The position numbers and the translations under genes were made by a program. A stretch of DNA of 64,000 nt from positions 119,972,001-120,036,000 of the forward strand of contig NW_024704742.1 of the NCBI RefSeq assembly GCF_018977255.1, in the 5' to 3' direction. The DNA comes from Callorhinchus milii. Lineage: Eukaryota. Below, piece by piece: positions 37,373 through 56,335 of the stretch; positions within the stretch are counted from its first letter, which is position 1; each line of letters begins with the position of its first letter. The notes under the pieces are model-generated. The model searched no databases. It was not told the DNA's origin and saw only the letters and a program-made list of their open reading frames with translations.

Positions 37373-37516
37373 TCATCTTTTAACAGGATAATTCTCTTGC
37401 CGCTCCACAATCGTTCCTTTGCTCAAGAGGAAATCCTTTTGGTTAGGTTCACGACCAAGAAATGCCTTCTAAAGATTCTCCAAGTTTTGGATATAGCTTC
37501 TGAATTTCACACTCAC
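37373..37516 (-). pseudogene. NLN/THOP1-like last coding exon
   Basis: caattag|VSVKFRSYIQNLENL*KAFLGREPNQKDFLLSKG..* versus NLN FLKREPNQKAFLMSRG and THOP1 FLGRDPKQDAFLLSKG. Confidence 0.88.
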
Positions 37517-37629
37517 CTAATTGCCAAACAAAATTTTACTCAATTGGATCTAGAATGGAATGACAACAATTCAATGTCTGACTGGATATACCCTTTCCCT
37601 CCAACATTGAAAACTTGAACTGATCTGCA

Positions 37630-37955
37630 ACTCCTCTGGCTCCGGTCTGCTCCACATCCCCCGCCCCAACCGCCCTACCATCGGTGCCGGGCCTTCAGCC
37701 TCTCAGCCCCTAGACTCTGGAACTCTATCCCCCAGTGCCTTCGCCGCTTCCTCCCTTTCCTCCTTCTCAAGACCTTTCTCTTTGACCGTGCTTTCATCTC
37801 CCCTCGCGACTCTCTACCTCCTCCTCGCTCCCTCCTTTCCCTCCCCTCACCCTGACCATTTCCCCCCTGCTTGGGTCCTGACCCAACTGTCCAGCGCCTT
37901 GGGACGTCCTCCCGACATGAAAGGCGCTCTATAAATGAAATCTTGTGTTGTTGTT
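37630..37955 (+). mobile_element. L2 3' end
   Basis: Near-identical to 23715-24025. Confidence 0.92.
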
Positions 37956-38269
37956 GTATTGAAGACGTGATAAGGCTCAATATTAAATGCAACAATCGTT
38001 ATTATTACAATTTGAAGAAAGAAAGGATATTAATTCTAAAGGATTAACAAAATCAGAAGTAATTTTAGTCTTTGTTCCAGATAGATGCTCAAGACTGAAT
38101 GGAGCCAGCAGAAAAAATGATCTTGGAAATTTACCATTGCAGTGATTTTGTAAAAAGTGATTTTTTTTTGTGGGAGGAGTGTAAGGGTTCTTTCTGCCAC
38201 GTTGTCTCACTTTACTACTGTTGGCTAGAACCCAGCACTTAAGAATTATAATTGTATTGTATTTATATT

Positions 38270-38406
38270 ATCTGCACCACTTCATTCTGGAGAAGAGAGA
38301 GCATCAGGTATTAGTTTGGTAAAATCTGCCACCGTGGCTGATATTGTTATCTGTCTGGACCATCAGATGAAGATCAAAACAAGCTGCATGTAACATCTTC
38401 CTATTT
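38270..38406 (-). pseudogene. NLN/THOP1-like exon remnant preceding the HExxH motif
   Basis: Acceptor ttacag; HAACFDL..DG.RQITISATVADFTKLIPDALSLLQNEV (with frameshifts) versus THOP1 [41 protein letters not shown]. Truncated before HEFGH. Confidence 0.85.
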
Positions 38407-39198
38407 CTGTAACAGAAATAATAATAATAATGACAATCATTTCATTTTATATACCACCTTTCACATCTGGAGGTCATCTGAAAGCAAGGATTTACTGTAA
38501 TTGTGAAGTGACTGTATTTTATGTTGACGAATGTGGCAGCCAATTTGAACACAGCAATGTCCCACAAACAGCCATGAAGCCAATTTTATTTGGAGGACTG
38601 TTGGAATAAATTCAATTCTGAATAACTAAATGTGTAAATACATCATGGTTACAAAAGTATTGATATGATGTGCTGATCAGTTCGCTACTATAACACCCGA
38701 TTTCCCAGATAGCACAACAATACAATACCATGAAGATATCAAATTGAATAGATGCTTTCACCTCAAAATAAATAATCTGTGGCAAAATCTTTTTTGTTTT
38801 CAATTTGTATTACACTCAGTGCAAAGCATGTGATTATTTATATCTTTCCCTCCAGTGTATCAATTGGCTAACAATATTCTTCTGATGCCATCAAGTGGTA
38901 CAACTTGTAATTGCTGGCTCTACGTCAATTGTGTCCTCAGAATGGAAGCCACACTGAATGGGTTATTGGATAGGATAAGATAGTTGTGTCACAGGAATGT
39001 TTTGAGAAGTTGGATGGGTCGGTTAAATGGACCAATGAAACCATTACTTTGATTCTTACTGCCCACCCTCCCAGCTCAATTTCTGACACCATCTCTGAAA
39101 AGCATGCAAGACAGTACTGTATGTGAAGGACACTATATTAAGTGCAAACTGTTCTTGATTCGATATATACAAAAAAAGTATTTTAATTTCAGTTGTTG

Positions 39199-39306
39199 AA
39201 AGATGTTACATGCAGCTTGTTTTGATCTTTAGCTGATGGTCCAGACAGATAACAATATCAGCCACAGTGGCAGATTTTACCAAACCCATACCTAATGCTC
39301 TCTCTT
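39199..39306 (+). repeat. Inverted duplicate of the 38270-38406 pseudo-exon
   Basis: aagatgttacatgcagcttgttttgatc...cagattttaccaaacccatacctaatgctctctct is the near-exact reverse complement of ~38293-38399. Confidence 0.9.
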
Positions 39307-39900
39307 AATTTTTGCCCCAAACAAAAATCCTTCTGGAATCGTCTGGGCATCTCCATGATATTGGCATGTTACTGGTTTAAGTGTCTTATTGCGAGTGTTG
39401 TGTGGAAAACTCTCCAAACTCTCCAAAAAATAAAATGGAAAATACACTTTCCCCACATAATGATTTCCTTTCCGCTATACAAATGTAATCTTGTTGTTGT
39501 TGTTTCCCAGCCACACTTTCAGGAGGTGGGGAACAGCAGCGGAAAATTGCTTCCCAACAGCAAATACAAATTTTGTAACTTCCCACTCACCAGTTAGAGT
39601 GACGCTGAAGCAGGCGTTTTTACCTCTCAGCTGGGTCTCACGTTGTCTTCACAGCAGGAGAAAAGAAACAAAAAAAAGAATGATACACTACTATTTAAAA
39701 TAATCTATAAAGTAACTTAGGAAGGAACATGATGTGCTGCATATTTCAACCTTGGGGTTCTGTTAAAATTCCTCAGCTTTTTGAGCTTTCTTTCAATTTC
39801 CCTCTTCATATTCCCCACCAAGTATCCCCCGTTCATAGTGACATGTTGCAGCAGGAGAATAAAAGATATGAATTCACAAATAATAGAGTAACTGAAATAC

Positions 39901-40376
39901 CTTGGATAGAGATGAAACAATAGAAAGGTCTTCAGCCGAGACCTGAAAATAGGAAGAGATGGGGCGAAGCGAAGGGAGTGAGGAAGGGAATTCCAGAGCC
40001 TCGGGGCATAGTGACTGAAGGCATGGCCGCCGAGGGTGGAGCGGAGGACTCGGAAAAGGCCAGACCCGATGGAACGAAGGCGACAGGCACTGTTGTGAGT
40101 TGAGAGGAGATCAGGGAGGTAGGGGGTGCAAAGGAATGGAGGGATTTGAAGACAAGGGTGAGGATCTTGAAGTCGATCCTCTCTGGGACAGAGCATTTCT
40201 GATGTTCTTATGGTCAACAAAGTATTTGATTTCCTAAATCTGTGCTGTGTAGTAACACATATCCCACACATTAATCTGATCACACTCAAATCCTTACCCT
40301 TCATATTTCTTCTACTTTAATTCTAGATTAGAGCATCTCTCTTCACCGAAAGGTTTCAATTTCTCATATAAATCAT
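39901..40376 (-). pseudogene. NLN/THOP1-like large exon interrupted by an L2 fragment
   Basis: DDLYEKLKPFGEERCSNLELK*KKYEG*GFECDQINVWDMCYYTAQI*EIKYFVDH versus NLN [58 protein letters not shown]. Ends HLYPR|gtattt (NLN DLYPR). Acceptor AG changed to GG. Confidence 0.9.
39920..40190 (-). mobile_element. L2 fragment within the NLN-like pseudo-exon
   Basis: LRSIGSGL..GGHAFSHYAPRLWNSLP. Confidence 0.85.
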
Positions 40377-41069
40377 CCGTGGAACAAAAGATAATGAATT
40401 GTGACTTCCCAAGTGTCGCTCTGCCAAGTTGGGTGGTGGAGGCGGATTTCATTGTTGCCTTCAACAAGTTGACAGGCATATAGAAGACAGGGGCTTTAAG
40501 GTGTATAGGGATAAGGTGGGGCAGTGGGATTGAAGCTATACCCTAACTCTGTGGAGGGTTGATGGCCCCAACAGCTTTCTTGTATGTTTCTATACATTTA
40601 ATTTCAGATTTAACAAAAATGCATGTAAAAAATCTAGCAATTTATCGATCAAAATTACAATGACATTCTTGGAACAACATCAGTATTTGGACAATTAGTC
40701 CTAAAAATCTAGTAAACAAAAACATATATATATTTATTTTGCTTTACAAGAATGCAAATTCTTGGCCTACAATTCCTGGAATGTAACCCCAGGAAGCAAT
40801 AGATGTTACTTGGACAATTTTTTATTAAAATATGGCAAATGGAAAAAAGTTTTTTTTTCAGCTTAAGGAAAACAAAAACCAACCACTTTGTAAAGTGCTG
40901 CAAACTTACTGATACACACAAGGAAAACAGTAAATTACATCAATCCATATATCTCCTCCTCTAGTGCAAAGGAAAAGTGAACCCTGGGAGAGCATGTCTT
41001 CACTGCTCTTAAAGAGGGCAAGTCTTTGGAGTTTCTCTTTTTTTTTATTTCTCTTTTCGCACCGTGGGC

Positions 41070-41310
41070 TCCACTCTATAGGAACCTGGTTGTTAGTCGA
41101 TTGGCGGATTGTTTTCCAGGGGAAATAATCCTTTCAAAAAAAAATTAAATAAAAGTTTGGTCACTCAATCCGTGTGTTTGTGGGACACTGCTGTGCACAA
41201 TTGCTGCCACTTTTCGCCCACAAAATATCCACTTTACAGTACATTCTGTGAAGTGCTTTGAGGTGTTTCAGCATGTTAAGGCGTTATATCAAATGCAAGG
41301 ATTATTATTA
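41070..41310 (+). mobile_element. SINE, diverged
   Basis: Core and tail. Confidence 0.8.
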
Positions 41311-41645
41311 TCTAACCACAGAGATTACACTAAAATGGGCAATTTATTAAGTGACAGACAGCAAATGGAACTTCAGTATTTTGTGATGTGTCAGTAGGTT
41401 CAACAAGCTGCAGCACGCATTGGCAAGAAATTATATCAGTTTGTGTTACCAGACAAATGACTGCAATGAGACGTAGGAAAAAGTAACCACCAAACATTTT
41501 ACAAGCTATAGCAGTTGGTAAACCGCCTTGTCTTTTCTTCCTGTTTGCCGACAGCAATGCACCAGAATGTCACTGATCTTACAAACATACCTTTTTAAAA
41601 AATGTGAGTTCAAAACTGCAGGAAATTTCAATCAAAGGAGCAAAC

Positions 41646-41775
41646 CTAAGAATTTCATCACATATTCAGCTTTTCGCACCATGTACATTCGAGTACAATG
41701 GGGAACTGAATCCCAAGAGTTCTGTTGCTTTTGCTCGAAGTGAAATCAGCATTTCAGTTTTTTTTTAATGTTTTC
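41646..41775 (-). pseudogene. NLN/THOP1-like exon remnant
   Basis: ggcag|GAAAAC...TTCTTAG|gtttg; frameshifted ENIKK..EMLISLRAKATELLGFSS..VLE..MVRKAEYVMKFL versus NLN [45 protein letters not shown]. Confidence 0.8.
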
Positions 41776-41824
41776 CTGCCAATAGAACGTAAGATTCAAT
41801 CAATGTTTATGAGATTTCACAAAC

Positions 41825-41928
41825 TCAATTTTGCAACTGTGCTAAATAAAACATTTTCATCCTCAGCTGAATTTACATTGAACCAAGTTTATTTATATAT
41901 TTTAAAAAAAATCTATTTGAGGGCTTCC
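41825..41928 (-). pseudogene. NLN/THOP1-like exon remnant
   Basis: AG..GT bounded; FNVNSAEDENVLFSTVAKL versus NLN FNKNLNEDDTFLVFSKAEL. Confidence 0.6.
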
Positions 41929-42089
41929 CTGATGGTTGTGGATTGAGCTGCAGCTTTGCTGATTTGATTCAAAGAGTGCTGCATTTGTTGATCTCAGTCT
42001 GGGCTGCATGGCTAAGCTGAGCTGAGCCTGGGCTTCTTGAGGTTAAGGTTGGGAAAACCTTAAAAAAAAGGGTGGTTTTATTCCTCTAT

Positions 42090-42910
42090 ATTAACAACAA
42101 CTTGCACTTATATAGCACCTTCCACGCAGGGTAGTGTCTCAGAGCGCTTAACAGTGGCGGAGCCTGACTCCGGGCCAGAGGGGGGGAGGGGTGGGGGAGT
42201 AACTGTAAGTACGGTCGAAAAGGAAGGTTTTTAGGTAGGACTTGAAAAAGAGTAGAGAGGGGGCAAAGTGGAGGGTCTGAGGGACAGTGATCCAGAGTTT
42301 CGGGGTGTAGCTTTACAGTGCCCTCCACGCAGGCTGAATGTGTGAGGTCCAATGGTGCAGAGAAGGGAGCGAGGGATGAGCAGGAGGCTGGTGCCAGTCG
42401 AGCGGTGGATTGGGGAGTGAAGAGGTGGGAGAGGTAGGGAGGTGCCAGGGCGGGAAGGGATTTCAACACGAGTATGAGGGTCTTGAAGTCGATCCATTTA
42501 GTGATGGGGGGCCAGTGGAGTCTGGTGAGATGTGGGTACAGAGTTTGTTCTGGGTAAGTATGTGGGCAGCAGAGTTCTGAATGAGCTGGATTTTTTGAAT
42601 AGTGGAGCTGGAGAGACCGGGGGGAGGGGGTTTGAGTAATCCAGGCAGGAGGTGACAAATACACGCATGAGGGTTTCAACTGCATTTGGGGTAAGGTACA
42701 GTCGAAGCTGGGCAATGTGGCAGAGGTGGATGTCCTGGTCAGGGACCGGATGCAGGGAAGGAAGGACAGCTGGGGATCGAACCGGATGCCTAGATTGCTC
42801 ACTGGTTCGGTGAATCTGAGGAAGAGCCCAGAGAGGTTGAGGAGTTCAGATCCACAGGAGTGAAGCCATTGAAGGGAGCAAAGGAGTATGGCTTCCATCT
42901 TGTCCACATT
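42090..42910 (-). mobile_element. Old L2 3' fragment
   Basis: LNVDKMEAILL..NLGIRFDPQLSF..LHWPPITKWIDFK. Confidence 0.88.
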
Positions 42911-43354
42911 GAGCACATATCTGCTCCCACTCTCTGGAACTACATCTCAGAGTAACCGCGACCCGTCCTCGCTCTCACCTCTTTCAAGGTTCGTCTCAAG
43001 ACCTTCCTCTTTGACTGCGTTTTCCATCATTTTTGCCCCTCCCCACACCTCTGTCAGCTCCTACCCCTAACTCAGGACGTCCTCCCATTGTGAAAGGCAC
43101 TATATAAATGTAAATTTCTTTTTGCACTCCATGACATGTTTTGTACCAAAATATAGAATAAACCTTTACAATGACAATCACTTTACATACCTTACATTCT
43201 GTGAAGCTCTTTGAGACTTCTCAACGAGATGATAAGGCACTATATCAAATGCAAGGATTATTATTATTAATTGTTGCATGGGTTAACAGCAATAATTGGA
43301 CGCACAATCTTTTGTAAGACATCTATTTTTTCCTTCACCTCTTTACAAAGCATC

Positions 43355-43680
43355 GCGAGTGAGAGACCTGGGTTCGATTCCCGGCAGGGCAAAACATTGG
43401 GCAGGTTTTCTTACTCCACACATCTCTATTTACCTAGCAGTAAGTAGGAACCCAGATTGACGGATTGCATTTCCGGGGGTAATAATCCCTTCAAAAGAAA
43501 AAAAACTAAAAAATTGGTCACGACTGTTTGTGGGACACTGCTGTGTGATATTGGCTGCCGCGTTTCTCCTACAAAAAATATACAGGCATTCACTTTACAG
43601 TATATTCTGTGAAGCGCTTTAAAACATCTCGAAGACCCGATAAGGCACTATATCAAATGCAAGGATTATTATAATTATTA
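43355..43680 (+). mobile_element. SINE, longer-core variant
   Basis: B box GGTTCGATTCC; extra middle segment; tail. Confidence 0.88.
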
Positions 43681-43699
43681 CATCAGTGATCAACAACCC

Positions 43700-43749
43700 A
43701 TGGCCACTTTAGGCCTGCGTGGGGTGTCAAGAAGTAGCTCTCTGAACAC
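43700..43749 (-). pseudogene. NLN/THOP1-like early exon remnant
   Basis: After acceptor ttttgtacag, TTCAGAGAGCTACTTCTTGACACCCCACGC reads roughly VQRATLDTPR with one frameshift, versus THOP1 VQRNILDFPQH. Short and weak. Confidence 0.35.
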
Positions 43750-43974
43750 CTGTACAAAATCAATACCAATAATTACATTTGGGTGAGTTGAATAAACAAA
43801 TGACCTATTGAGTGAAAAGCAAAATGAACTGTAGCATTTCACAAATCCATAGAATATATTTCTAAACCATATCAAGCCAGTGCTCATTTTGTAAATTTCA
43901 GGGCAGTTTTGAACTGGGGCCCCTTTTAAGCATTCCAATCAATCCTAATGTACACACTGGGTAGCAGTGTGTAC

Positions 43975-44463
43975 ATCGAATTCAAGATCCTCATCCTCAC
44001 CTACAAGGCCATTCACGGCCTTGCTCCCTCCTACCTCTCCGACCTACTATCCCCCTACCTACCTGCCCGTACCCTCCGTTCCTCTGGCTCCGGTCTGCTC
44101 CACACCCCCCGCCCCAACCGCCCTACCATCGGTGGCCGGGCCTTCAGCCTCTCAGCCCCGAGGCTCTGGAACTCTATCCCCCAGTGCCTACGCCGCCTCC
44201 TCCCTTTCCTCCTTCAAGGCCGGTCTCAAGACCTTTCTCTTTGACCGAGCCTTCAGCTCCCCTCTCAACTCTCTACCCCCTCCTCGCTCCCTCCCTTCCC
44301 TCCCCTCACCCTGACCATTTCCCCCCTCCTCGCTCCCTCCCTTCCCTCACCCTGACCATTTCCCCCCACCTCGGGTCCTGACCCAACTGTCCAGCGCCTT
44401 GGGACGTCCTCCCGACGTGAAAGGCGCTCTATAAATGGAATCTTGTTGTTGTTGTTGTTGTTG
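43975..44463 (+). mobile_element. L2 3' end with a tandem duplication in the 3' UTR
   Basis: IEFKILILTYKAIHGLAPSYL; (TTG)n tail. Confidence 0.93.
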
Positions 44464-46448
44464 TAGCAGTCCATATTCATGACTGAGGTTCAATTAAGGA
44501 AGAAGTGGGGGTGGTGGCAGACCACACAATATCAAACATGGTTTGGCGTTACTCAATGATTAACGGTGTCACGATCACACAATGTCTGCAAGTTACTAAA
44601 TTCGCGTCAGATCTCCTTGCTGCTCTCCTCAATCCTGTGACTTGTTCGTAAAAAAATTAACTAAACATTTCCCCAGCGCTGACAAGTCCGGAGAGGCATT
44701 GAAATATTATTCACCAAAAAGTCATACACGGGCAAATTAAAACCCTTTATTTGTGAGATCAAAAAGACACCATGTAGGTACGGATGTGTTCTGTTATATT
44801 TAAATAAAGAGCATGCGGTACAGTATAAGTGCAGTGTATTTGCTGTGCACTTTACAATCGTCACAAACTTTAGGGGTGTGCAAATGGAGCTGCTTTTTCT
44901 GCAGTACTTTCAGATCAGGTCAGGTTGACCCTGGTCTTGGCCAAATCAGATCAGGCCAGACCAGGGTGACCCCAGACAAGTGGCTGCAACTTTTGTGCCC
45001 CAATTGTCACCTGTTCAGATTCTCTGCAGATTTACCTGAAATAACAGGGAAAGCTCCATGAGCTAGAAGGGGGAGAAACTAATACGAAAAAGGTCAAATC
45101 AATTATCCAATTGAACTGGCTTCTTGGCACAACTGACCAATTCGTGCAATAATCCTTTGCACCTGGAGGAAATCCTGCAATAGACCCCTCCTGAGGGCAA
45201 TAATAGGAAAGAAACTCAGGGCTCTGAAAAAGTCAATCATCATCAGCACATCTCAGCATTTGCACCTTTCCCTGCACAGTCCTTCCACCCACAGCCAACA
45301 GGAGAGTTTCAGCAACAATGTGACTTTTTAAAATATATATATATATAGGTCGTCTGATGCTCTGGCACTTTTCTCAGGGGCTCACTTGCTAGCCAGGGCT
45401 TTGAGGTTTGCTCATATCCCAGACCAGAGATGGCTGCAGAGTGACAGTGAGATGGACCTGCCCTGATTCCTGGGGTTTGCACATAACACTGGGAGGTGGC
45501 GCCTGTGTTCTGCAGCTGTGAGTCTGGAGAGAGTGACTGAGAGACTGTGTGAGTATCTACACAGAGAGAAAATAACATATGTTTGTTTTTGTTTGCTGGA
45601 GTCTGTATATTTTTTGTTTCTAACATCAAGAATCTCAGCATCTTTCCAAGTGCAACAACTTGCAATTTATATAGTGCCCTTCATATGGGGGTTGGTTTCA
45701 GATAAATGGGTAAAGTAAGATTTCACAAAGCAAAGAGCATCCTAGTCTACTGCTAATGGCTTGTGCATCCAGAGCTAGCAACAGAGCTTGTATTTCAAAC
45801 TTATTCCAGTCCTAGGTGAAGTTGGAGAAAATATTGACTGAAGAATACAGTACTGTGGCCTTGCTCTTTTGCATCTGTAAAAAGGATAAAATAATGGAGA
45901 CAGAGACAGCATTCCTGAAATTATTAATTTTATTTTCAAGAAACAAGTTGAAGCAGTTCTTTGTACAGTACTGGAGCCTTTTAAATTGTTTTGGGAATGT
46001 TTTAAGATGTTGTAGTCTTAAGAGAATATAGCATTTTTTGGTTCTCTGGTCAATTGGTAGTCTGACATGTGCTTAAGAGTATCTTAAACAGATTGAGTTG
46101 CACCTACACTTGCCTGGAATTATACCTGTGTACTGTGGGTGTAGCTCTACTGTACTACCCTCAATTTTATTTTGCTGTTCCAGGGAAAATTGCCCAGGCT
46201 GTGATCTGGCAAACTTAGCCATGTAACATAGAGCAGGTATGACTTATCCCAGCAGGTTACTTTAAAATTCAGCCATTTTGTATGTTTCTGGAGATTTTGT
46301 TAGTTTCTGGGGGTGAGAAGGTCACACTAAATTGATCAATTGTGAGCCTGTGTCATTAAGACAATGTGCCAATCTTTTGCCAACTCCTGAGAACAGAATA
46401 TTTCCATCTGTTCCATTTAATGTTGCCTCAGCACATTTCTCTTCACAG

Positions 46449-46560
46449 GTACTGAAATTTATTTAGTTGAAAATTTCCTGAACTTGCCTATAAGCAGTTG
46501 GTTTCTGTGCTACCGTTGCAGAGAGGAGAAAAATGGAGGGGGGAACAATTATGCAAAAAA
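46449..46560 (+). pseudogene. SGT-like first coding exon remnant
   Basis: Acceptor cttcacag; CTATAAGCAGTTGGTTTCTGTGCTACCGTTGCAGAGAGGAG loosely resembles SGTB IKHLVYAVIRFLRE. No start codon. Confidence 0.35.
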
Positions 46561-48169
46561 ACTGTTCTTAAATTCACTCTCAAGGTAATGGTTTTGAACC
46601 CCAAATTAGCCTCTTGGTATCTGTTCTTGGTTAAGTAGCTTTGAAAAGAACAGCTCATTTGAATTGGACCAGATTGATGGGTATTTCTCTGCATTGCTAT
46701 GTTACCTCCACTGTCTGCTGGCGGATTTGTTAATTCATGCAGTATATTTTGCTGACAGCTTTCTCTGCTTTCTGGATGCTGTAGTTCTATTAAAATATAC
46801 GATTACAATGTTAAAGTAGCTGATGACTTTTTATGTTTGGATGTAGAAACAAAAGGGGCCAAATCTTAATTGGAATTTTTTAAATCTTCTCCAAATGTTT
46901 ATTGATTTGAATGTGCTTAATGTCTATAATGTTTAAATTTGGCTTAGTTGATAGCACTGTTGCTTCTGGATCATAGGTTGGTTTGAAAATCCAATGTAGT
47001 ACTAGGGGAGCAATGTATTGTTGCAAATACTTTGGATGAGCTGTTGCACCAAAGATCTGTTTAAGTGGATATTAAGCAGGCAATTTGTGCATAACACAAT
47101 AAGCCATGAACCCATGAGCAATAAGCCATGAAGTGCATGATCAACTTTATCTGGGAGATTGTAAGTCACTTAAAAGAATACTAATTTATTTGCCCTTTAA
47201 GCTGTTCTGTAAAAATGTACTGTAAATATAAACCCGTTCGTGTAACAGAAGATTTTTGAGGTGCTCAGTTTAAACAAAAATGAAATGATACAGGACAGGT
47301 GTGGCTAGAGTTGATCAAGTTGGTCATGCTCAGCCTTATAAATTGAGCTTGAAGGCAGATTTAATTTAGAGGTCCTTGCCTGCAAATCCATTCATTCCCT
47401 GGTACCCCCTTATCTCTTCAGCCGTTTACTTCTCAGCTAACTCTGGCTTGCTGGATGTTCCTCTGCTCTCTCCCCACCACCATTGATGGCTGAGCCCTTC
47501 CTACCCCCCTACCCCCAGTCTCCAGAACTCTTTCCTTCAACCACTCTGTCTCACTCCCTTGCTTTCCATCTTTAATTCTCACCTCAAATCCTACCTCATC
47601 AAATGTGCCAGTGGTCACCACCTCCCCTCTGCTTGGCATCCAACCCCATCCTTGTAAAGGGCCTTGAGACATCACCTTGTGTAAAGGGCACTATATAAAT
47701 AGAAATGTTTGTGGAAAACAGGATTGCAAAGTAGATTGCCTTACTCCCTAACTAGCAATATGTGACAACTTCTGAAATATGGTGAAAAGGGACCACGTCT
47801 GGGTAAAACAATACACCTCATTTCTCTTATTGGCTACCCTGTGACAAATTGCCTCAATGCTCTCGAATACTTCAGCCCTTCAATAAACTGTATCTCCAGA
47901 CAGATTAGGTTTTGGAAAGTGTACTTTATATACAATAGACTCCTGATAACTTGTCACTCCAAGGGAGAAGGAAGGGCTCAGTGATATTTATCTGGAATGG
48001 CGACTGAGGCATTAGTATAAATATAATACATAAATGCGTCTGGGATATTGACAGCATGATGACGTGAGTGGCAATGACAAGTTAAGCCGTTGTCAGGAGT
48101 TTACTCCAATACCAGTGTAGTCTTGGTTTATCAACAGGATTTACATTGATTTTTTTTCTTCTCATTCAG

Positions 48170-48268
48170 TTGCCATACAGTGCTTGGAAGCAGCCTTTGA
48201 AATTACTTCACAGACGGCCTTCAGCCAATCTCCACGGATTCGCCAGATGTGCTTCAATGGTTAATAAG
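48170..48268 (+). pseudogene. SGT-like exon (N-terminal dimerisation domain)
   Basis: Polypyrimidine tract and cag|TTGCCATACAGTGCTTGGAAGCAGCCTTT = (V)AIQCLEAAF versus SGTA VAIQCLETAF; in-frame stops; ends AAG|gt. Confidence 0.85.
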
Positions 48269-48659
48269 GTGGGGGAGCTATGTTAATATGCAGGAAACAA
48301 TGAGTGAACTACAATTCTAGGTGGGCAGCACATGGGTATATCATAGGATTGTGGCTGCAGTTGCACAATTGAATTTCAGTTATAATCTAGGCTGTCAAAG
48401 GAACATATTGATAGGGTATAGTGTAGGAGTTAAGAACATCAGGCTTATTACACCAGCAGGTTTTACCATCTTGTCCTCTGTTGGGGAATTGTGGACTACT
48501 TTTTCTGTTTTTTTTAAAAAAAGATTCAAGTAAGCTTGTGTAGCAGAAATGAAATGTGATGGATGAATGCATCACAGAGAGCTTCCAGGAGATTACATGA
48601 GTGAGATGGAATTTGCTTGTCGTGTAGGTTTAGTCTTGTCTGCCGAAGGATTAAGGTTG

Positions 48660-48860
48660 CTGGCCTACTTCAAGATGGAGGTAGATAAATATTTGTTAGG
48701 TCAAGGAATTAAGGGATATGGGGCAAGGGTGGGTAACTGGACTTGAGGTATAGATCAGCCATGATCTTATAAAATGGTGTAACAGGCTCAAGGGTGTAAT
48801 TTTTTACCCAGAAGTGGTCCCTTTTCACCATATTGCTGAATAGCCTACTCCTGTTTCTGT
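48660..48860 (+). mobile_element. CR1-like 3' end
   Basis: ttcaagatggaggtagataaat...atcagccatgatctt...gcctactcctgtttct. Confidence 0.6.
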
Positions 48861-48962
48861 GTATGTAAATATGTACTGGCATTCAATTTCATGATTTCTT
48901 ATATTCAATATATTCAACCTTGAAATTGGTCTCTTGCTTCATTTGTAATGTGCACTGACTAG

Positions 48963-49024
48963 AATCTGCATGCTGCAGTCCACACTGATGATGGTGGATT
49001 ATACCAAAACTTTTCAAATGATGG
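48963..49024 (+). pseudogene. SGT-like TPR exon remnant with internal deletion
   Basis: QSTL..MVDYTKTFQMM(G)|gtaatt versus SGTB QSKL...AIDSKYSKAYGRMG. Confidence 0.5.
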
Positions 49025-49189
49025 GTAATTTGAAAGTTGCTTGTTGTATGCAGGAAATCTTCCTAGTAAATTCTAAATGGCTAATGTGTGATCTTCCCAT
49101 TCATACACTAACTCTCAACAATTCTGTATTTACCATGAACCAGTTTGAATATTTCTCCTAAATGTTCTATATCTCTGCTTTCTTTACAG

Positions 49190-49309
49190 ATAGCTTTACC
49201 AACTTTGGATAAGCATCACAAGTTGGATAAGTATCACAATTGCATGCGACAGCAAGGCTGTGGAACTGGATCCTGAAAATGACGGAATGTAGGAGAAGTA
49301 TCAAATCCC
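49190..49309 (+). pseudogene. SGT-like third-TPR exon remnant
   Basis: tctttacag|IALPTLDKH..KAVELDPEND..EVSNP|gtaagt versus SGTB LALTALNK..KALDLDPEND..REVSSP; contains an 18-bp tandem duplication and a deletion. Confidence 0.85.
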
Positions 49310-49769
49310 GTAAGTGTGTTACTTGTTTGGATGTAGAGTTTGCATATTTAAATCTACACCTGTCTGCATGAAACTAGAATTGTGCAAGTCATCTTCAACT
49401 ATTTATCAGGATTGGGTCTTCAGTATAAAACTGCAGATCTGATGCAATGTCATATTACTCTATTGTAAAATTGGGGTCTAAGTATCCTAGATTTTCAAAG
49501 AGAAAATCTAGGATATGCAATGCTAAGCATGTGTAAGCTTGCTAGGATCGTGATTTAGCCACACACTGGCCGTGAGTCAGTGCTGGAAACATTTAGTTAG
49601 TAATCTACAGTGTAATTTGCAATTGTGTTTAAAGGCTTCAATAATTCAAATAGTTTGGTTATTCTTCTGACTTTCAGACAGACTTAACAAATTTAACTGA
49701 TCAAATATTTGTTATTAGTTTTCAACCAACAATGTAATTGTGTCTACTTACCGCTCTGTCCTTGCCTCC

Positions 49770-52700
49770 GACAAATCATCCTTCTACTCCAAGATAATCT
49801 TGGAAGTGAAGGACAACTAGAGGCTATTCTATTCTCCACCACCAATCGGTTCCTCCATCCATCTTCCACGCCTCGTCCGTTCTCTCCTTATGCTTTGACT
49901 GTGAGGAGATGCCGGATTTCTTTATGTCCAAAATTGAGGGGATCCGTTCAGCTGCCTCCGCCCTCCCAACCGCCCCTCCCTCCCCATTGCCCCACCACAC
50001 TCCAACCCCTACCAATCTCTCCGTCCACATTTTCAAACCTGTTTTCCCTTTTTTCATCACCACCATATCCAGCATGAAACACTCCACCCCTCTCCCTACC
50101 ACCCAGCTCCACCTCCTCGGCCCTCTGCTCTCCGACACCATCGATCTCTCCCTTTCATCTGGCTCCAATCTCCTAAACAGCTACAATCACCCGCATCCTG
50201 AAAAATCTTCCCTGGACCCATCCCTGCTTTCTAACTACCAGCTCATCTCCAACCTCCCTTTTCTTTTGAGGGTCCTTGAAAGAGTTGTTGCTTTGCTCAT
50301 TCCTCTCTTACCACTCCCTTCACAAACCCCAACAATCTGGTTTCCGTGCCCCTCACAGCATTGCAACTGCTCTGGTCAAGGTGACAAATGACATTTTGTC
50401 CATCTGTGACCAGAGCTCCCTCTGCCTCCTCATCCTCCTCAACCTCTCTGCTGTCTTTGATCTTGTGGACCACTCCATCCTCCTCCACTGCCTCTCCTCT
50501 CACTTCAACCTTCCGGGTTCTGTCCTTAAATGGTTCTGGTCTTATCTCTCACACCATCTCCAACGGTTTCTCTTCCAGCCCCTGCACAGTCTCATGTGGC
50601 GTTCTCAGGGCTCTGTCCTCAGTCCCCTCCTCTTCAACCTCCTCGTGCTCCCCCTTGGTGACATCATCGGCAGACATGGGGGCCAACTTACACATGAATG
50701 CGGATGACACCCAACTCTATCTCTCAGCCTCCACCTTTATTTCAGTACAACTGATGTCCTGACAGGCTGTCTGCCTGACATCAAGTCCTGGATGAGAGCC
50801 AATGTTCTACAGCTAAATGTCAGCAAGACTGAGGCCTTCCTGATTGGCTCACGCCAGCAGGTCCACACCTCAGGCACTATCAGTATCCACGGTTCCACAC
50901 TCCACCTCACCAAGTCAGTCAGGAACCTGGGCGTCTGACCTTCAACTGTCCTTTCTCCCCCATGTCCGTGCCGTGACATGCTCTACCTTCCCCTACCTCT
51001 ACAACATTGCCCTACTCCACCATTGTCTCTGCCTCAAGCTGCCGAAACCCTCATACACGCATTCGTCACCTCAAGGCTCAACTGTGGAAACTCCTTCCTT
51101 ATTGGCCTCCCCAACTCTTCCCTGCACAAGCTGCGATCATCCACAACTCTGCAGCTCGTGTCCCCTCCCACACCAGCTCTGTGACCCCATCACCCCCACC
51201 CTCGCCAGCTCCACTGGCTCCCCATCCCTCAGAGGATAGAATTCAAAATCCTTGTCCTCACTTTCAAGACCCTCCACGGCTTTGCCCCCTCCTACATCTC
51301 TAACCTGCTGACCCCCTATCAACCTGTCTTCTCCCTCCACTCACCAGGCTCCGGCCTGTTTCAGCTTTCCCACCCGACCTGCCCTACCATCGGTGGCCAG
51401 GCTTTCAACCTTTCTGCCCCCACTCTTTGGAACTCCATCCCGCAATTCCTTCGCCTTGCTCCCTCTCTTGCCTCCTTTAAGCCATACTAAAGACCATCCT
51501 TTTTGACTGTGCCTTCAGCCGCCTTCCTACTCCCTCTGCCCTCCCTCATCCCACCTCTGCCCCTCACGCTCAGGTCCTGATCCCTGACTGTTCAGCACCT
51601 TGGGATGTCCCAATGTAGTGTAGTTGTTGTGGAAGTTTGAACAAATTACTACAGTTGGCAAAATAACCAGAAAAACAACCAACAATTTAGTCTTCTAAGT
51701 TTCCTTCCATATTTAATAAATTCATAACTTGAGGAAAGCAAAGTAGGCAATGTTTTTTGTTTGTTCACCAACCTTTGTACCAGTTTGTAAACTTATGTTT
51801 ATTACATTAGTTTGCAGGCATGTTGGCATAAACCTAAATACTTTACGAATATTATTTGCTTGTGAATGGGCTTTTTTTTATTGTTTAAGACGAGCACAAG
51901 AAACATGCTTACTGTTTACATGCATTGTATATGAATGTCCTCCTTGACGGTCTCCCCAGCTCCACCGCACACAATATTCAATTAACCCCAAACTCCGCCT
52001 GGATATTCACCCGCACAAATTTCCGTACCCCCATCACACCAGTCCTTGCCAGGCTCCACTGGCTCCCACTTACAGAATGGATCGATTTCAAGATTCTCAC
52101 TCGTTTTGAAATCCCTTCTTGCCCCTTGCATCTCCCTACCTATCTGATCTGTTTACCCCCAACTCCACCATCCACTGCTGTCCAGTCCAGAACCTTGGGT
52201 CTTGTTTGACCCTCAACTGTCCTTTCTACTGCACATCTGTACCATGACCCTCTCTGTCTTCCCTCACCTCTGAAACGTCGCCCGGCTCCAATACTGTTTC
52301 GCATCTCAGGCCGCTGAAACCCTCATACACACCTTCATTACATTGAGGCTTGACTATGCAAACTAATTGCTTGTCGGCCTCCCCAACTCCTCCCTCCAAA
52401 GGCTGCAAATCATCCAGAACTCTGCAGCCCGTGTCCTCTCCCGCACTAGGCTCTGTGACCCTATCACACCTATCCTTGCCCAGCGTCACTGGCTTTCCAT
52501 CACACGGGATAGAGTTCAAGATCCTGGTCCTCACCTTCAAAGCCCTCCATGGTCTTGCTCCCCCGATCTCCTAACACCCTACCACCCTGCTTGCTCCCTC
52601 CACTCAGCGGGCTCCGGCCTGCTTCATGTCCCCCACCTTGCTCGCCCTACCATTGGATGGCGGGCCTTCTGCCACTCTGCCCCCACCCTCTGGAACTCCA

Positions 52701-53160
52701 TCCCATAGTCCCTCCATCTTGCCACCTTCAGACCCACCTCAAGACCCGCCTCTTCGACCGTGCTTGCAATTTCCCTTTTTTCCCCTCCTACTCTGCACCC
52801 CACTCCCCTGCTCGCGTCTGTAACTGTCTGTCCAGTGGCTTGGGACGTCCTGCCGACGTGAAGGGTGCTATACAGATGTAAGTTTGTTGTTGTTGCTTCC
52901 ACTTGGCTGGCTATGGCCTCCTGTTTGTCCCTTGTCCCCTCCGCTCCACCATTGGTGGCCATGCCTTCAGCCACTATGCCAACAAAACTCTGGAACTCTC
53001 TCCCGCAATCACTCCGCCTTGCCCCCTCCCTCTCCACCTTCAAATCCCGCTTGAAGACCTTCCTTTTTGATCGTGCTTACGCTCACCTTCCCCCTGCTCC
53101 CTCTTCCCCTGGCTCAGGTTCAGACTCTGCCACTGTCAAGAGCTCTGGGATGCTACCCTG
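49770..53160 (+). mobile_element. Cluster of older L2 fragments
   Basis: RT motifs QSGFRAPHS, LNLSAVFDLVDH, QGSVLSPLLF, ADDTQLY and several separate 3' ends. Confidence 0.88.
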
Positions 53161-53166
53161 GGTGTG

Positions 53167-53488
53167 GAGTCCTGTAGCTCAGTGGTAAGAGCACTCGCTT
53201 TGTAAGCGAGAGACCTGAGTTCAATTCCAGGCAGGGCGAAACCTTGGGCAAGTTTCCTTACTCCACACGCCTGATAATAATCCCTCCAAAAAAACCAAAA
53301 ACAATAATAAATTGGTCATTTTCAATCTATGACTGTTTGTGGGACATTGCTGTGCGCAATTGGCTGCCGCGTTCGCCCACAAATATACAGTCAATTCACT
53401 TTACAGTGTGTTCTGTGAAGCGCTTTGGGATGTCCTCCCGACGTGAAAAGCGCTATATCAAATGTAAGCATTATTATTATTATTATTA
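53167..53488 (+). mobile_element. tRNA-derived SINE, full length
   Basis: Nearly identical to 32265-32580. Confidence 0.95.
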
Positions 53489-53599
53489 AGGACACTGTAC
53501 AAATGAAAATTGTTTTTATATAGACTTCCAAGATGGAAAATCTTGTTATCTCATTACAAAGCTTCTATTTTATTCATTTCTGCATATTTCCCATTTCAG

Positions 53600-53688
53600 A
53601 CAGAGGACAGCAGATGGAAGAACAGAATGAAAAATTAAGAAATCCGATATAAACCTAATCGTTCTGTGACAGCAATGATTGTTCCTGA
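53600..53688 (+). pseudogene. SGT-like last exon, copy A
   Basis: catttcag|..GQQMEEQNEKLRNPI*T*SFCDSNDCS* versus SGTB GQQFAQQIQQQNPELIEQLRNHIRSRSFSSSAEEHS*. Confidence 0.7.
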
Positions 53689-54149
53689 TCTCTTGTGGTA
53701 ATTGTGTATTCTGACTATCCAAATTCAACTCGCGTACAATACATAATCACTATCACTTTTTTCCGGAAAATGTTGAAAGCAGATCCATCAGAATGTGAAA
53801 GTAAAAGTTGGCTTAATCTTGTCAGCTGTCTTGCATTACAACATTTTAAATGATTTGGGTCTTTCAGATCCTGATAGACATGAGATTTGTAGCATTTTAT
53901 CTTATTTCAGATCGTTTGCTCCTGCAGTACTTTAGAAATTCTCGTATTGAGTTTATTTAGCGAAGTGCTTATGTTAAGTAAGGGAGATTGCGTCATATTG
54001 TTATAGAGAATGGTAATTATTCTCAGTTTGTATCCCATGTAAATATATGACCATTTGGGTGTAGTTTAGCATAATAGTTAGAAGCCTGAAGTAATAAACT
54101 TAGTTTCCTTCAAGAATGTCATGATTATAACAAACAAGCAGTACCACTC

Positions 54150-54695
54150 CCAACAGAATACCCAGGTGCTGGCTGAGTAAAAGAACCATTCTCAGTACAC
54201 ACTCAGTAAAATCCAAATCATCCAAAGCTCTGCCGCCCGCATTCTCACCTGCACGAACCTCTACTCCCCGATCACCCCTGTCCTTGCCAGACTGCAATGG
54301 CTACCTATCCCAGAGAGGATCGACTTCAAGATCCTCACCCATTGTATTCAAGTCCCTGCACTCCCCTAACTCTCTGACCTCTCTCCTCGAAACAGTACCC
54401 GTTGCATTCGTTCCTCCGGGTCTGGCCTCCTCCTCATCCCCCGAGTCTTCTGCTCCACCCTCAGCGGCCGTGCCTTCAGCCACTGTGTCCCGAGGCTCTG
54501 GAACTCACTTCCTCACTCACTTTGCCTCACTCCCTCCCTTCCTATGTTCAGGTCTCTGCTAAACACCTTTCTTTTTGACTGCGCCTTTGGTCACCTTCCT
54601 CCCCCTCCCCCTGGCTTGGTCCTGAGATCCATTACTGTGAAGCGCTCGGAGACGCCGTCTGGCGTGGAGGGCGCTATATAAATCCAAGTTGTTGT
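54150..54695 (+). mobile_element. L2 3' fragment
   Basis: IIQSSAARIL.., RLWNSL, 3' tail. Confidence 0.85.
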
Positions 54696-56243
54696 ACACT
54701 TAACACAATTTGAAACCAGTCACGTACCGCTAAACACAGGAGAACAGGCCAGTACGAGCTGGACGAGATAAGAAATAAAGATAGTAACACGCACATAAGT
54801 CATCTTTGTCTAACAGGGACGTTATTGTCCTGATGCTGCTAGAATGGTATAAAGATAGGAAGCTTAGAAAGGAAAGGTATCGAAGAAAGGAGGAACACAC
54901 AAGACAGGAGGGCATCTGGCTCAGTGGACTCCAGATCGTGCAAACTACCGACACTGAGAACTCGGAGCAGGAAAAAAGCGACCGACCACTGTGCTTGTTG
55001 CTGGCATTAGGGATTCGGACCAAGACACCAAAGAGGAAGTTTTTGGCGAAGACTACAGAAGACAAGAGGAGCGACCCAACGAGGAGGGACAGTTTAGCTC
55101 TGCTGACTCGGAGGTTGTGCAAGCTGACGATACAGAGACTGTCAGGAGTCGGTGTTACCAAGTGACCAGCTGCCGTGCGTACAGTCGATACTGGAACTTA
55201 GGTAACTGAACGATAGGAGATTGAACCAGTGAAAGCGTAGTAACAGAGGAGCGGAGTTTCAAAGGGATACAGCCAGTATGTATGTAGTATGTAGCCGAGA
55301 CAGTTCAGACAATCAGCTCAATAAGGGACATCGACACATAAGATCATCGAATCCGAAGTGCAGCCAGACGGAAGGGAACGAAAGACGGAGAGAGAGGGGA
55401 AGAGAGCCGTGCAAGGCAGGGGAAAAAAAACAGACCTTGATGAGATCTCCAGGCAAATGCCCAGAAAGCCTGGTAGTATGATTACACCCCCACGAATCCA
55501 CGCAATGTTCCAACTCAGCAATACTAATTCTGAATTGTGTATGTATTTGTTGTAAGATTTATTGAATGTGATTACATGTTGCTTATTGATAGAAACTGCT
55601 GGTATTCAACCAGTTTATAACCATGTTATTTAATCTGTGCCTGTTAACTTGTATCAAACAAAACTATAATTTTAATGCCTACCCTGACTACATGATGTCC
55701 TTGTTGACCCTTGTACTGAAAAATTTACACCCAGACTTTTGTTCACAAAACATTGGAAGAAATTGCAAGTTTGGGACTCCCTCTCTCTACAAAAGGTGTA
55801 TTTGACAGTTGCACTTTCCACACTGTGGCCGTGAGTCAGTTGCACTTTCCACACTGTGGCCGTGTGTCAGTGCTATGCTGTGTTTATTTAGTAATCTACA
55901 GTGTCGGATTAGAGATGGGTATAAAGAGAGAGCAAGTTATATAGACAAATAGAAATTCCAGACAGTTCAAAAAATCAGAATAGCAGAGAAAACTGACACT
56001 ATAGTGACAATGTAACTTCTGATAGAACGTATCATCACATAACAAATTGGCTAAAATGCTAAGAATTCTGTGATAACCACTTGTCTGCACTATTTCCTTA
56101 TCCAAAATAAAGTTGTTCCAAATTTGTGGTGGTCAGCAATTTTCTACTGTAATTCTGTTTTCAATGGTGTGATTAAAGGCTTCAGTAAGACTATTATTAC
56201 AAAGCTTACATTTTATTCATTTCTGCAATATTGCCCATTTCAG

Positions 56244-56335
56244 ATGGAGGACAGCAGATGCAAGAACAGAATCGAGAGTTAAGGAATTGGATCCGAACCC
56301 AACTGTTCAGTGACAGCAATGAAGATTGTTCCTGA
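56244..56335 (+). pseudogene. SGT-like last exon, copy B
   Basis: catttcag|..GGQQMQEQNRELRNWIRTQLFSDSNEDCS*; open to the terminal stop but with deletions relative to SGTA/B. Confidence 0.75.

What the first reader, a model, noticed from the sequence alone, without database searches (positions are those of the whole stretch)
37373..56335. Head-to-head NLN/THOP1-like and SGT-like pseudogene pair, possibly a lost third ohnolog pair
Seen: exon remnants of both genes in correct order with splice sites, on opposite strands, facing away from ~44-46 kb. Established: SGTB-NLN and SGTA-THOP1 are divergently oriented neighbours in human, in paralogous regions. Inference: both remnants look like mosaics of the two known paralogs (THOP1-like RQITIS..DFTKP with NLN-like REPNQK; SGTA-like CLEAAF with SGTB-like DPEND..EVSNP). 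That fits a third whole-genome-duplication copy that survived long in this lineage and then decayed. The six-frame ORF track mostly misses it.
Basis: partly seen in the sequence, partly recalled or inferred. Interest (0 to 1): 0.85.

Follow-up and report, generated by a model that had tools for sequence, protein, structure and literature searches.

The report
Decayed neurolysin–SGTB gene pair, elephant shark
The window holds the eroded, still faintly transcribed remains of the ordinary neurolysin (NLN) and SGTB genes at their usual chromosomal place in the elephant shark, so this is the loss of a known gene pair and not a relic of an extra duplicate.

Summary
The exon remnants are real. On the minus strand, thimet-oligopeptidase/neurolysin-like pieces lie in gene order at 40416-40198, 38406-38294 and 37468-37373 (best tblastn E 2.6e-11; reversed-sequence control gives nothing at E<=1e-3). 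On the plus strand, SGT-like pieces lie at 48170-48268, 49190-49309 and 56244-56335. Each is weak, but they are the top three of 4096 six-frame ORFs and are in gene order.

The genome is Callorhinchus milii. It has an intact THOP1/SGTA pair on contig C21, and whole-genome searches find no intact NLN or SGTB anywhere. The window sits on C1 between RAD17, a p85 PI3K gene and a MAST gene on one side and single-copy TRAPPC13 on the other. That is the NLN-SGTB neighbourhood of human 5q12-13 (partly recalled). The two other MAST/p85 paralogous regions lie on C21 and C5.

So this is the canonical NLN-SGTB pair, decayed in place: stops, a frameshift, lost catalytic and TPR exons, transposon insertions, local duplications and no CpG island. 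It is not a third ohnolog. The "mosaic" residues are ancestral states. One assembled contig from a probable RNA run splices through two SGT-like exons at GT-AG sites. Ordinary gene loss, modest interest.

The parts
37373..37468 (-). Remnant of the last coding exon (exon 13) of the neurolysin-like gene. It is an open 31-codon frame ending in TGA at 37373-37375 and preceded by the acceptor tctttag.
   Evidence: Sequence read. Best PDB matches are thimet oligopeptidase and neurolysin C-termini (E 0.13-0.6). tblastn. 147 HSPs from 277 M3 queries, best E 1.3e-5.
38294..38406 (-). Remnant of the first two thirds of exon 8 (..HAACF.. to ..FTK..), behind a preserved ttacag acceptor. It carries one frameshift and in-frame stops. 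The part that should hold the HEXXH zinc site is missing.
   Evidence: (223 HSPs). The acceptor and frames were read from the translations.
39179..39374 (+). Inverted duplicate of the exon 8 remnant. It shares the frameshift and stop of the first copy and reaches about 18 codons further. The HEXXH position reads ESSGH.
   Evidence: Inverted repeat arms 38293-38420 and 39179-39306, 88% complementary. tblastn residues 452-491, E 1.9e-4. 117 HSPs. Alignment.
40198..40416 (-). Remnant of the 5' half of exon 7, with 3 in-frame stops (2 TAG, 1 TAA). The 3' half is replaced by an interspersed repeat. One of the stop mutations creates a GTAAGG at 40297, and an assembled contig piece ends exactly there.
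   Evidence: E 6e-9; E 5.4e-7 against the whole genome; 175 HSPs, best E 2.6e-11. Repeat match at 39919-40145. Contig record 2 covers 40298-40377. Flank read.
41702..41755 (-). Possible remnant of exon 6 (..LR.K...LLGF..). It is in gene order but weak.
   Evidence: 10 HSPs from 277 queries, best E 0.3. Alignment.
44751..47750 (.). Former intergenic and 5' region between the two genes. It is CpG-depleted (observed/expected 0-0.21) and has no CpG island. The intact THOP1 5' end on C21 has GC 0.59-0.66 and CpG observed/expected 0.86-1.09.
45406..45548 (+). Upstream exon of a spliced transcript. It has no SGT similarity and is followed by gtgagt.
   Evidence: Contig record 4 of run X5. Flanks.
48170..48268 (+). 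Remnant of SGT exon 2 (dimerisation domain, ..VAIQCLEAAF..). The acceptor position and phase match C. milii SGTA exon 2. The SGT frame ends in two stop codons inside the exon.
   Evidence: E 0.003; 81 of 120 SGTA queries; E 0.01. Unique in the genome.
49190..49309 (+). Remnant of SGT exon 6 (end of the TPR domain, ..KAVELDPEND..). Both splice sites are preserved. It has an internal deletion with a frameshift and a stop.
   Evidence: E 0.25; 101 of 120 queries; E 1.3. Unique in the genome.
53584..53987 (+). Older direct duplicate of the region holding the last SGT exon, truncated by an early stop.
   Evidence: Five direct-repeat families 2644-2650 bases apart, 77-84% identical. 8 of 120 SGTA queries hit 53572-53637.
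56244..56335 (+). Remnant of the last SGT exon (glutamine-rich C-terminus) behind ccatttcag. The stop codon is at the same place as in SGTA, and there is a 4-codon deletion.
   Evidence: E 0.002, 52% over 31 residues; 120 of 120 queries; E 0.012. Contig pieces at 56279-56469 and 56730-56890.

Best explanation
These are the unitary (non-duplicated, unprocessed) pseudogenes of the canonical neurolysin (NLN) and SGTB genes of Callorhinchus milii. They lie head to head at their conserved chromosomal position. Shown: both genes have lost coding capacity through in-frame stops, frameshifts, deletion of the catalytic exons (NLN exons 9-12 and the HEXXH part of exon 8) and of the TPR exons (SGT exons 3-5), transposon insertions and local duplications. 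Also shown: the region between them no longer has a CpG island. Inferred: because the two genes shared one divergent 5' region, a single event that silenced that region probably removed selection on both at once, and both then drifted. Their paralogues THOP1 and SGTA, intact on contig C21, presumably cover the lost functions. Shown, with one caveat on the kind of run: several ancestral splice sites still work, and low-level spliced RNA runs through SGT-like exons 2 and 6. In the ancestral frame this RNA cannot encode an SGT protein.
For: Species and place: an exon on C21 is 100% identical to C. milii THOP1. The window is C1:119972001-120036000. Remnants: see the observation check. Unprocessed: the pieces are separated by intron-sized gaps, and acceptors or donors sit at the positions used by THOP1 and SGTA. 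Disabled: 3 stops in exon 7. There is a frameshift and a stop in exon 8, shared by both copies. No HEXXH lies in the chain of pieces. None of 149 minus-strand ORFs reaches Pfam Peptidase_M3 at E<=1. SGT exon 2 ends in two stops. No canonical copies elsewhere: Pfam M3 hits 3 loci only. C21 is THOP1, with 13 intact exons. C16 is oligopeptidase-A-like. C4 is a distant M3 gene. The whale NLN fragment P0153 finds only C21, this window and a weak C4 hit. C. milii SGTA finds strong matches only on C21; all other hits are 31-48% identical TPR matches. Synteny on C1: RAD17 at 115.10 Mb, p85 PI3K at 119.20 Mb (-), MAST at 119.51 Mb (-), the window, then TRAPPC13 at 120.18 Mb (-). TRAPPC13 and RAD17 each hit one locus only. 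In mouse, Nln and Sgtb are neighbours followed by Shld3, Ppwd1, Cenpk and Adamts6 (passages of PMC10154780). The rest of the human order is recalled. Age: no DNA-level similarity to the C21 locus except interspersed repeats (70 blastn hits, all repeats). No CpG island. RNA: one 386-base contig of run X5 joins 45406-45548, 48170-48266 and 49188-49309 at GT-AG sites, and both exons are unique in the genome.
Against: Sequence alone does not assign the M3 remnant to NLN. At 16 informative columns where THOP1 and the only available NLN (a partial whale protein) differ, the remnant matches THOP1 at 5, NLN at 1 and neither at 10. AU tests reject none of three placements: remnant with NLN (p 0.72), with holocephalan THOP1 (p 0.77) or with all THOP1 (p 0.80). 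No SGTB sequence and no non-mammalian NLN could be obtained, so orthology rests on synteny and on the absence of other copies. Much of the human gene order is recalled rather than tested. RAD17 lies on the opposite strand to what simple collinearity would predict. Absence of intact NLN and SGTB is shown for this assembly only. The kind of run X5 (RNA) is a guess by the tool. The single-event silencing is inference.
Confidence: 0.85

Rival explanations
1. One reading: a third ohnolog pair from the vertebrate whole-genome duplications, beside NLN/SGTB and THOP1/SGTA, which survived for a long time in this lineage and then decayed.
For: In a quick tree the remnant sits unresolved with NLN and the THOP1 clade, inside the vertebrate group (SH-aLRT 94) and outside THOP1 (82). 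It shows residues of both paralogues.
Against: The genome has no other NLN or SGTB for this to be a third copy beside. The window lies in the paralogous region marked by single-copy TRAPPC13 and RAD17, next to one of three MAST/p85 pairs. The other two pairs lie on C21 (with THOP1/SGTA) and on C5, and no M3 or SGT remnant was found near C5 or the C29 MAST. The mixed residues are ancestral by outgroup comparison.
Confidence: 0.03
2. A lineage-specific segmental duplicate of the C. milii THOP1/SGTA pair that landed here and decayed, with NLN/SGTB lost without trace.
For: The AU test does not reject grouping the remnant with holocephalan THOP1 (p 0.77). Exon 8 matches THOP1 better than whale NLN. 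The spacing of the remnants (about 3 kb from exon 7 to the last exon) resembles the compact C21 THOP1 gene.
Against: No intron or exon DNA similarity to C21 remains; all 70 blastn matches are interspersed repeats. The THOP1-like residues of exon 8 are ancestral, shared with outgroups. The copy would have had to insert exactly where NLN-SGTB belongs, in the same order and orientation relative to MAST and TRAPPC13, while the resident pair vanished completely.
Confidence: 0.04
3. The remnants are no longer protein genes but have been kept as a divergent pair of functional long non-coding RNAs. This adds to the pseudogene reading and does not exclude it.
For: A spliced contig uses three GT-AG introns and two ancestral exons. 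Further contig pieces cover the 3' exon and part of the M3 exon 7 remnant. At least five ancestral splice sites are still canonical.
Against: Contig depths are about 3-4. There is no CpG island. Heavy transposon load and local rearrangements fit neutral decay. Slow sequence change in this species could preserve splice sites by chance. No relative was available to test for conservation.
Confidence: 0.1

Closest known systems
Neurolysin (NLN), M3A metallopeptidase, and its paralogue thimet oligopeptidase (THOP1)
   Same: About 50% identity over exon 7 to both C. milii THOP1 and whale NLN. Intron positions are the same as in THOP1. The gene is head to head with an SGT gene. Its chromosomal neighbourhood is that of NLN.
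   Different: It has no HEXXH zinc site, no exons 9-12, 3 stops and a frameshift, and no Pfam domain hit. It is not an enzyme gene any more.
SGTB / SGTA (small glutamine-rich TPR co-chaperones)
   Same: Remnants of the dimerisation exon, the end of the TPR domain and the glutamine-rich C-terminal exon lie in gene order, with SGTA-like exon borders and a stop codon at the same place.
   Different: TPR exons 3-5 were not found. The frame is broken in exons 2 and 6. Exon 1 was not convincingly found (best E 3.4). Assignment to SGTB rather than SGTA rests on position only, because no SGTB sequence was obtained.
Unitary pseudogenes such as GULOP (named in the introduction of PMC9004415, passage seen), and transcribed pseudogenes in general
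   Same: A single-copy gene disabled in place in one lineage. Introns are kept, disabling mutations have accumulated, and residual transcription remains.
   Different: Here two adjacent, divergently transcribed genes decayed together, and each has an intact paralogue, themselves paired, elsewhere in the genome.

Membership tests
Peptidase family M3 (Pfam PF01432), active enzyme | HEXXH zinc-binding and catalytic motif | tested here: not met
   No HE..H lies in the chain of pieces on the minus strand. The only match between 30 and 47 kb, at 34353-34367, is unrelated. The position reads ESSGH in the inverted copy and is deleted in the collinear copy.
Peptidase family M3 (Pfam PF01432), active enzyme | Domain match above Pfam's gathering score | tested here: not met
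   0 of 149 minus-strand ORFs (37.0-46.8 kb, at least 22 residues) hit Peptidase_M3 at E<=1. The genome-wide family search did not list the window.
THOP1/NLN subfamily (by descent) | Significant similarity, in gene order, to THOP1/NLN proteins with shared intron positions | tested here: met
   Best E 2.6e-11. Four to five pieces lie in gene order. 192 HSPs at E<=1e-3 against 0 in the reversed control. Acceptors lie at THOP1 exon borders.
NLN orthologue | Conserved neighbourhood (MAST4 and PIK3R1 on one side, SGTB then TRAPPC13 on the other) and no other NLN in the genome | tested here: met
   The human order is partly recalled. Mouse Nln-Sgtb adjacency comes from PMC10154780.
NLN orthologue | Shared derived residues, or tree placement with NLN | tested here: inconclusive
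   At 16 informative columns the remnant matches NLN at 1, THOP1 at 5 (3 of them ancestral) and neither at 10. AU tests reject no placement. Only one partial mammalian NLN was available.
SGT family (SGTA/SGTB) | N-terminal dimerisation domain (Pfam SGTA_dimer) | tested here: inconclusive
   E 0.0023, 18.1 bits, below the 26.8-bit cut-off. The best PDB hits are SGTA at E 0.3. It is the top hit of the SGTA profile, E 0.01.
SGT family (SGTA/SGTB) | Three TPR repeats | tested here: not met
   Only the last 10-14 residues of the TPR region are recognisable. No TPR family hit among 111 plus-strand ORFs.
Third 2R ohnolog pair | Canonical NLN and SGTB present elsewhere in the same genome | tested here: not met
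   Searches find only THOP1/SGTA on C21 and this window.
Third 2R ohnolog pair | Location in a paralogous region other than those of NLN/SGTB and THOP1/SGTA | tested here: not met
   The window lies with single-copy TRAPPC13 and RAD17. The other MAST/p85 regions are on C21 and C5, with a further MAST on C29.
Unprocessed unitary pseudogene | Introns retained, disabling mutations present, no functional copy of the same gene in the genome | tested here: met

The most novel reading that the evidence does not exclude
The decayed NLN-SGTB pair has been kept as a divergent pair of spliced non-coding RNAs that still use ancestral splice sites. Under this reading, one regulatory event silenced two neighbouring protein genes, and their transcription unit was then reused.
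Probability: 0.1. Interest if true: 0.5.

Novelty: new member of a known kind. Interest (0 to 1): 0.3.

Why it matters
It shows that the elephant shark, a reference genome for early jawed vertebrates, lacks neurolysin and SGTB as working genes and relies on THOP1 and SGTA alone. This bears on how redundant these paralogue pairs are: neurolysin degrades neurotensin and bradykinin in mammals (passage of PMC10154780). It is also a clean example of two divergently transcribed neighbours being lost together. It carries a caution for ohnolog hunting as well. A decayed orthologue in a slowly evolving genome keeps ancestral residues and can look like a mosaic, and so like an extra paralogue. Synteny and a genome-wide census settle the matter where a short, eroded sequence cannot.

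Tried and rejected
- Pfam scan of 149 minus-strand and 111 plus-strand ORFs: no M3 hit, and only a sub-threshold SGTA_dimer hit.
- Protein search with the last M3 exon: too short. Read through with X, it returned no candidates, although a stored lungfish THOP1 shares 6 words with it. That blank therefore means little.
- Representative search with C. milii THOP1 and a cluster look-up of 10 hits: no full-length vertebrate NLN. Only one partial whale NLN (P0153) was recognised.
- Last protein search, with the C-terminal SGTA exon: the named hits among the 120 listed are SGTA and no SGTB was recognised. The SGTA-versus-SGTB likeness of the remnant was therefore not tested.
- Tree and AU tests: uninformative, and the quick free search was worse than the constrained trees.
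- Diagnostic-column count: too few sites.
- Possible SGT exon 1 at 45221-45307 (E 3.4, 3 of 120 queries) and an out-of-order match at 45103-45225: treated as chance.
- Sequencing runs: no RNA holder listed. Parts of the stretch without contig cover are not used as evidence.
ERBIN and SREK1 next to the window were therefore not examined.
- CENP-K family search: 9 scattered matches, several with stops, none near the window, so it is no use as a marker.
- Atlas look-ups of the C4 and C16 M3 exons: only 'M3 peptidase'.
- PDB search of the PH-like ORF at 54788-55162: no hit.
- Earlier-findings look-up: nothing.
- Literature searches found no paper on NLN or SGTB loss in cartilaginous fishes or on a third THOP1/NLN ohnolog. 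The searches were: neurolysin + elephant shark; SGTB/NLN/bidirectional promoter; neurolysin + thimet oligopeptidase + whole genome duplication; Callorhinchus milii + unitary pseudogene; and two on TRAPPC13/SGTB/NLN. In PMC9004415 a term search returned no NLN, THOP1, SGTA or SGTB.

Full report
**What the window is.** An exon of contig C21 of the window's genome is 100% identical to Callorhinchus milii thimet oligopeptidase. The window is C1:119972001-120036000 of a 991.5-Mb assembly. It is rich in repeats: reverse-transcriptase fragments lie at 22-23, 26-27.5 and 50.3-50.7 kb, and a GIY-YIG ORF at 61 kb. Interspersed repeats fill much of 37.6-38.0, 39.9-40.1, 41.1-44.5 and 52.8-54.7 kb.

**The M3 peptidase remnants are real.** C. 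milii THOP1 (P0003) gives tblastn hits in gene order on the minus strand:
- residues 308-365 at 40377-40210 (E 6e-9, 52% identity, three in-frame stops);
- residues 422-443 and 452-473 at 38432-38294;
- residues 649-695 at 37516-37397.

With 277 stored M3 proteins as queries, the same places collect 175, 223 and 147 HSPs (best E 2.6e-11). A weak piece at 41755-41702 collects 10 HSPs. The real window gives 192 HSPs at E<=1e-3; the reversed window gives none. The best PDB matches of the last exon are the C-termini of thimet oligopeptidase and neurolysin.

**The SGT remnants are real but far more eroded.** A profile built from 93 SGTA proteins was run over 4096 six-frame ORFs. It ranks 48121-48261 (E 0.01), 56189-56332 (E 0.012) and 49194-49289 (E 1.3) first, second and third. 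All three lie on the plus strand and in the order of the protein. The reversed window's best hit has E 3.6. Of 120 SGTA queries, 81, 101 and 120 hit these three places. Pfam SGTA_dimer hits the first at E 0.0023, below its cut-off. Its best PDB matches are human SGTA.

**Anatomy.** The pieces are separated by intron-sized gaps and keep splice signals where THOP1 and SGTA have exon borders:
- tctttag before the last M3 exon;
- ttacag before M3 exon 8 (read);
- cattcag before SGT exon 2;
- ttacag and gtaagt around SGT exon 6;
- ccatttcag before the last SGT exon (C21 exon maps).

These are therefore unprocessed copies. Both genes are disabled:
- M3 exon 7 has 2 TAG and 1 TAA, and its 3' half is replaced by a repeat.
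- M3 exon 8 has a frameshift and a stop and lacks the HEXXH part.
- M3 exons 9-12 have no trace in the 820 bases between exon 8 and the last exon.
- No upstream M3 exon other than a doubtful exon 6 was found.
- SGT exon 2 ends in two stops, and exon 6 has a frameshifting deletion and a stop.
- The SGT TPR exons 3-5 were not found.

Two local rearrangements followed the decay. The exon 8 remnant lies in an inverted duplication (arms 38293-38420 and 39179-39306, 88% complementary). Both arms share the same frameshift and stop. The last SGT exon lies in a direct duplication (53584-53987 and 56228-56633, 77-84% identical). The stretch between the genes (44.75-47.75 kb) has CpG observed/expected of 0-0.21. 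The 5' end of intact THOP1 on C21 has a CpG island with GC 0.59-0.66 and observed/expected 0.86-1.09.

**Where the canonical genes are.**
- Pfam Peptidase_M3 finds three loci in the whole genome. C21:7.315-7.323 Mb is THOP1, with all 13 coding exons intact. C16:15.686-15.694 Mb has a catalytic exon closest to plant oligopeptidase A (E 2e-23, against 2e-10 for THOP1/NLN). C4:68.03-68.06 Mb is equally distant from THOP1 and NLN. Both C16 and C4 are only 31-45% identical to THOP1 over their matched exons.
- A partial whale neurolysin recognised among the representatives (P0153) finds only the THOP1 exons (41-73% identity), this window (E 5.4e-7, 3 stops) and a weak C4 hit.
- SGTA_dimer finds only C21:7.327 Mb, head to head with THOP1.
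- Full-length C. milii SGTA finds strong matches only there. Every other hit is a 31-48% identical TPR match.

The assembly thus holds one intact pair, THOP1/SGTA, and no intact NLN or SGTB.

**Synteny.** On C1 the order is:
- RAD17 at 115.10 Mb;
- a p85 PI3K regulatory-subunit gene at 119.20 Mb, minus strand;
- a MAST kinase gene at 119.51 Mb, minus strand;
- the window, with the M3 remnant (minus) and then the SGT remnant (plus);
- TRAPPC13 at 120.183-120.185 Mb, minus strand.

TRAPPC13 and RAD17 each match a single locus. As I recall the human map, this is the order and, except for RAD17, the orientation of RAD17-PIK3R1-MAST4-(SREK1, ERBIN)-NLN-SGTB-TRAPPC13 on 5q12-13. For mouse, passages of PMC10154780 give Nln, Sgtb, Shld3, Ppwd1, Cenpk and Adamts6 in that order on chromosome 13. 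The other MAST/p85 pairs lie on C21 at 9.44-9.48 Mb, on the chromosome of THOP1/SGTA, and on C5 at 22.2-22.3 Mb. A fourth MAST is on C29. A true third ohnolog pair would be expected near C5 or C29, and no M3 or SGT match was found there.

**Why the remnant looks like a mosaic.** In exon 8 the THOP1-like residues (RQ, FTKP) are also the consensus of 30 invertebrate and other outgroup homologues. The whale NLN states are the derived ones. REPNQ in the last exon is the outgroup consensus too, and lungfish THOP1 carries KAFLGREPNQ. C. milii SGTA itself has DPENE and CLETAF. The mixed look is therefore retention of ancestral states and not a sign of a separate lineage.

The count of informative columns is too small to decide. 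Of 16 columns, 5 match THOP1 (3 of them ancestral), 1 matches NLN and 10 match neither. In a quick tree the remnant is unresolved with NLN and the THOP1 clade. AU tests reject none of three constrained placements. No DNA-level similarity to the C21 locus survives apart from repeats, which argues against a recent copy of THOP1/SGTA.

**Transcription.** No run is on record as RNA, and the tool's label for X5-X8 is a guess. One 386-base contig of X5 (depth 3.4) lies on 45406-45548, 48170-48266 and 49188-49309. The three junctions are canonical GT-AG once two ambiguous bases are assigned. Both SGT-like exons occur only once in the assembly, so a retrocopy is not the source. X5 holds only about 5% of the sampled words of 44.5-49.5 kb. 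I therefore read this contig as spliced RNA.

Further pieces cover 56279-56469 and 56730-56890. One 178-base contig covers 40298-40377 and leaves the genome exactly at a GTAAGG created by one of the stop mutations. Its other 98 bases were not listed, so splicing on the M3 side is inferred and not shown. In the ancestral frame the joined SGT-like exons contain stops, and no ATG-initiated frame runs through them.

**Explanation.** The pair is the canonical NLN-SGTB pair of C. milii, dead in place. Shown: homology, intron retention, disabling lesions, absence of other copies, conserved neighbourhood, loss of the CpG island and a residual spliced contig. Inferred: both genes were released from selection together when their shared divergent 5' region was silenced, THOP1 and SGTA compensate, and the loss is old. 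The grounds for an old loss are:
- a terminal branch of about 1.07 changes per site for the remnant, against 0.32 for whale NLN;
- 12% divergence between duplication arms that already shared the lesions;
- no residual nucleotide similarity to the paralogous locus.

**Limits.** I could obtain neither an SGTB sequence nor a non-mammalian NLN, so orthology is argued from position and census and not from a tree. The flanks next to the window were not read. Absence holds for this assembly only. Whether sharks or other chimaeras keep the pair was not testable here. I found no paper on this loss.

**Verdict.** The 'third ohnolog' interpretation is not supported. This is an ordinary lineage-specific loss of a known gene pair, of modest interest because the two neighbours were lost together and because some splicing persists.

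Noticed in passing
G000:C16:15686341-15694288 (+); loci L003, L009, L010, L020, L021: C. milii has a multi-exon M3 peptidase gene whose catalytic exon is far closer to plant oligopeptidase A (E 2e-23) than to THOP1/NLN (E 2e-10). From memory, mammals have no such gene.
   Followed up: partly
G000:C4:68030582-68060075 (-); loci L004, L007, L008, L011: A third, distant M3 gene spread over about 30 kb, equally far from THOP1 and NLN (about 30 bits). It is presumably the mitochondrial intermediate peptidase, but this was not named by any tool.
   Followed up: partly
window 54788-55162 (+): A 125-codon open frame with a sub-threshold PH-domain hit (E 0.0012, 19.7 bits against a 25.1-bit cut-off) and no PDB match. 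A 155-codon frame overlaps it on the other strand. It may be a chance hit.
   Followed up: partly
window 60991-62390 (-): A GIY-YIG ORF (E 7.7e-7) lies directly downstream of a 401-codon ORF. From memory, this layout resembles a Penelope-like retroelement.
   Followed up: no
window 21963-23202 (+), 25997-27469 (-), 50270-50704 (+): Reverse-transcriptase (RVT_1) fragments of LINE-like elements. The one at 50.3-50.7 kb lies inside the former SGT gene, between the exon 6 and last-exon remnants.
   Followed up: no
G000: C2:56.16 Mb, C26:1.40 Mb, C13:11.68-11.70 Mb, C1:5.70 Mb: CENP-K family matches at several unlinked places, several with stops inside and apparently without introns. They may be retrocopies. 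None lies near the TRAPPC13 side of the window.
   Followed up: no
window 53226-53488 and about ten other places; L016:8394-8658: An abundant short interspersed repeat shared with the C21 locus (up to 91% identity). It is very deeply covered in the probable RNA runs.
   Followed up: no
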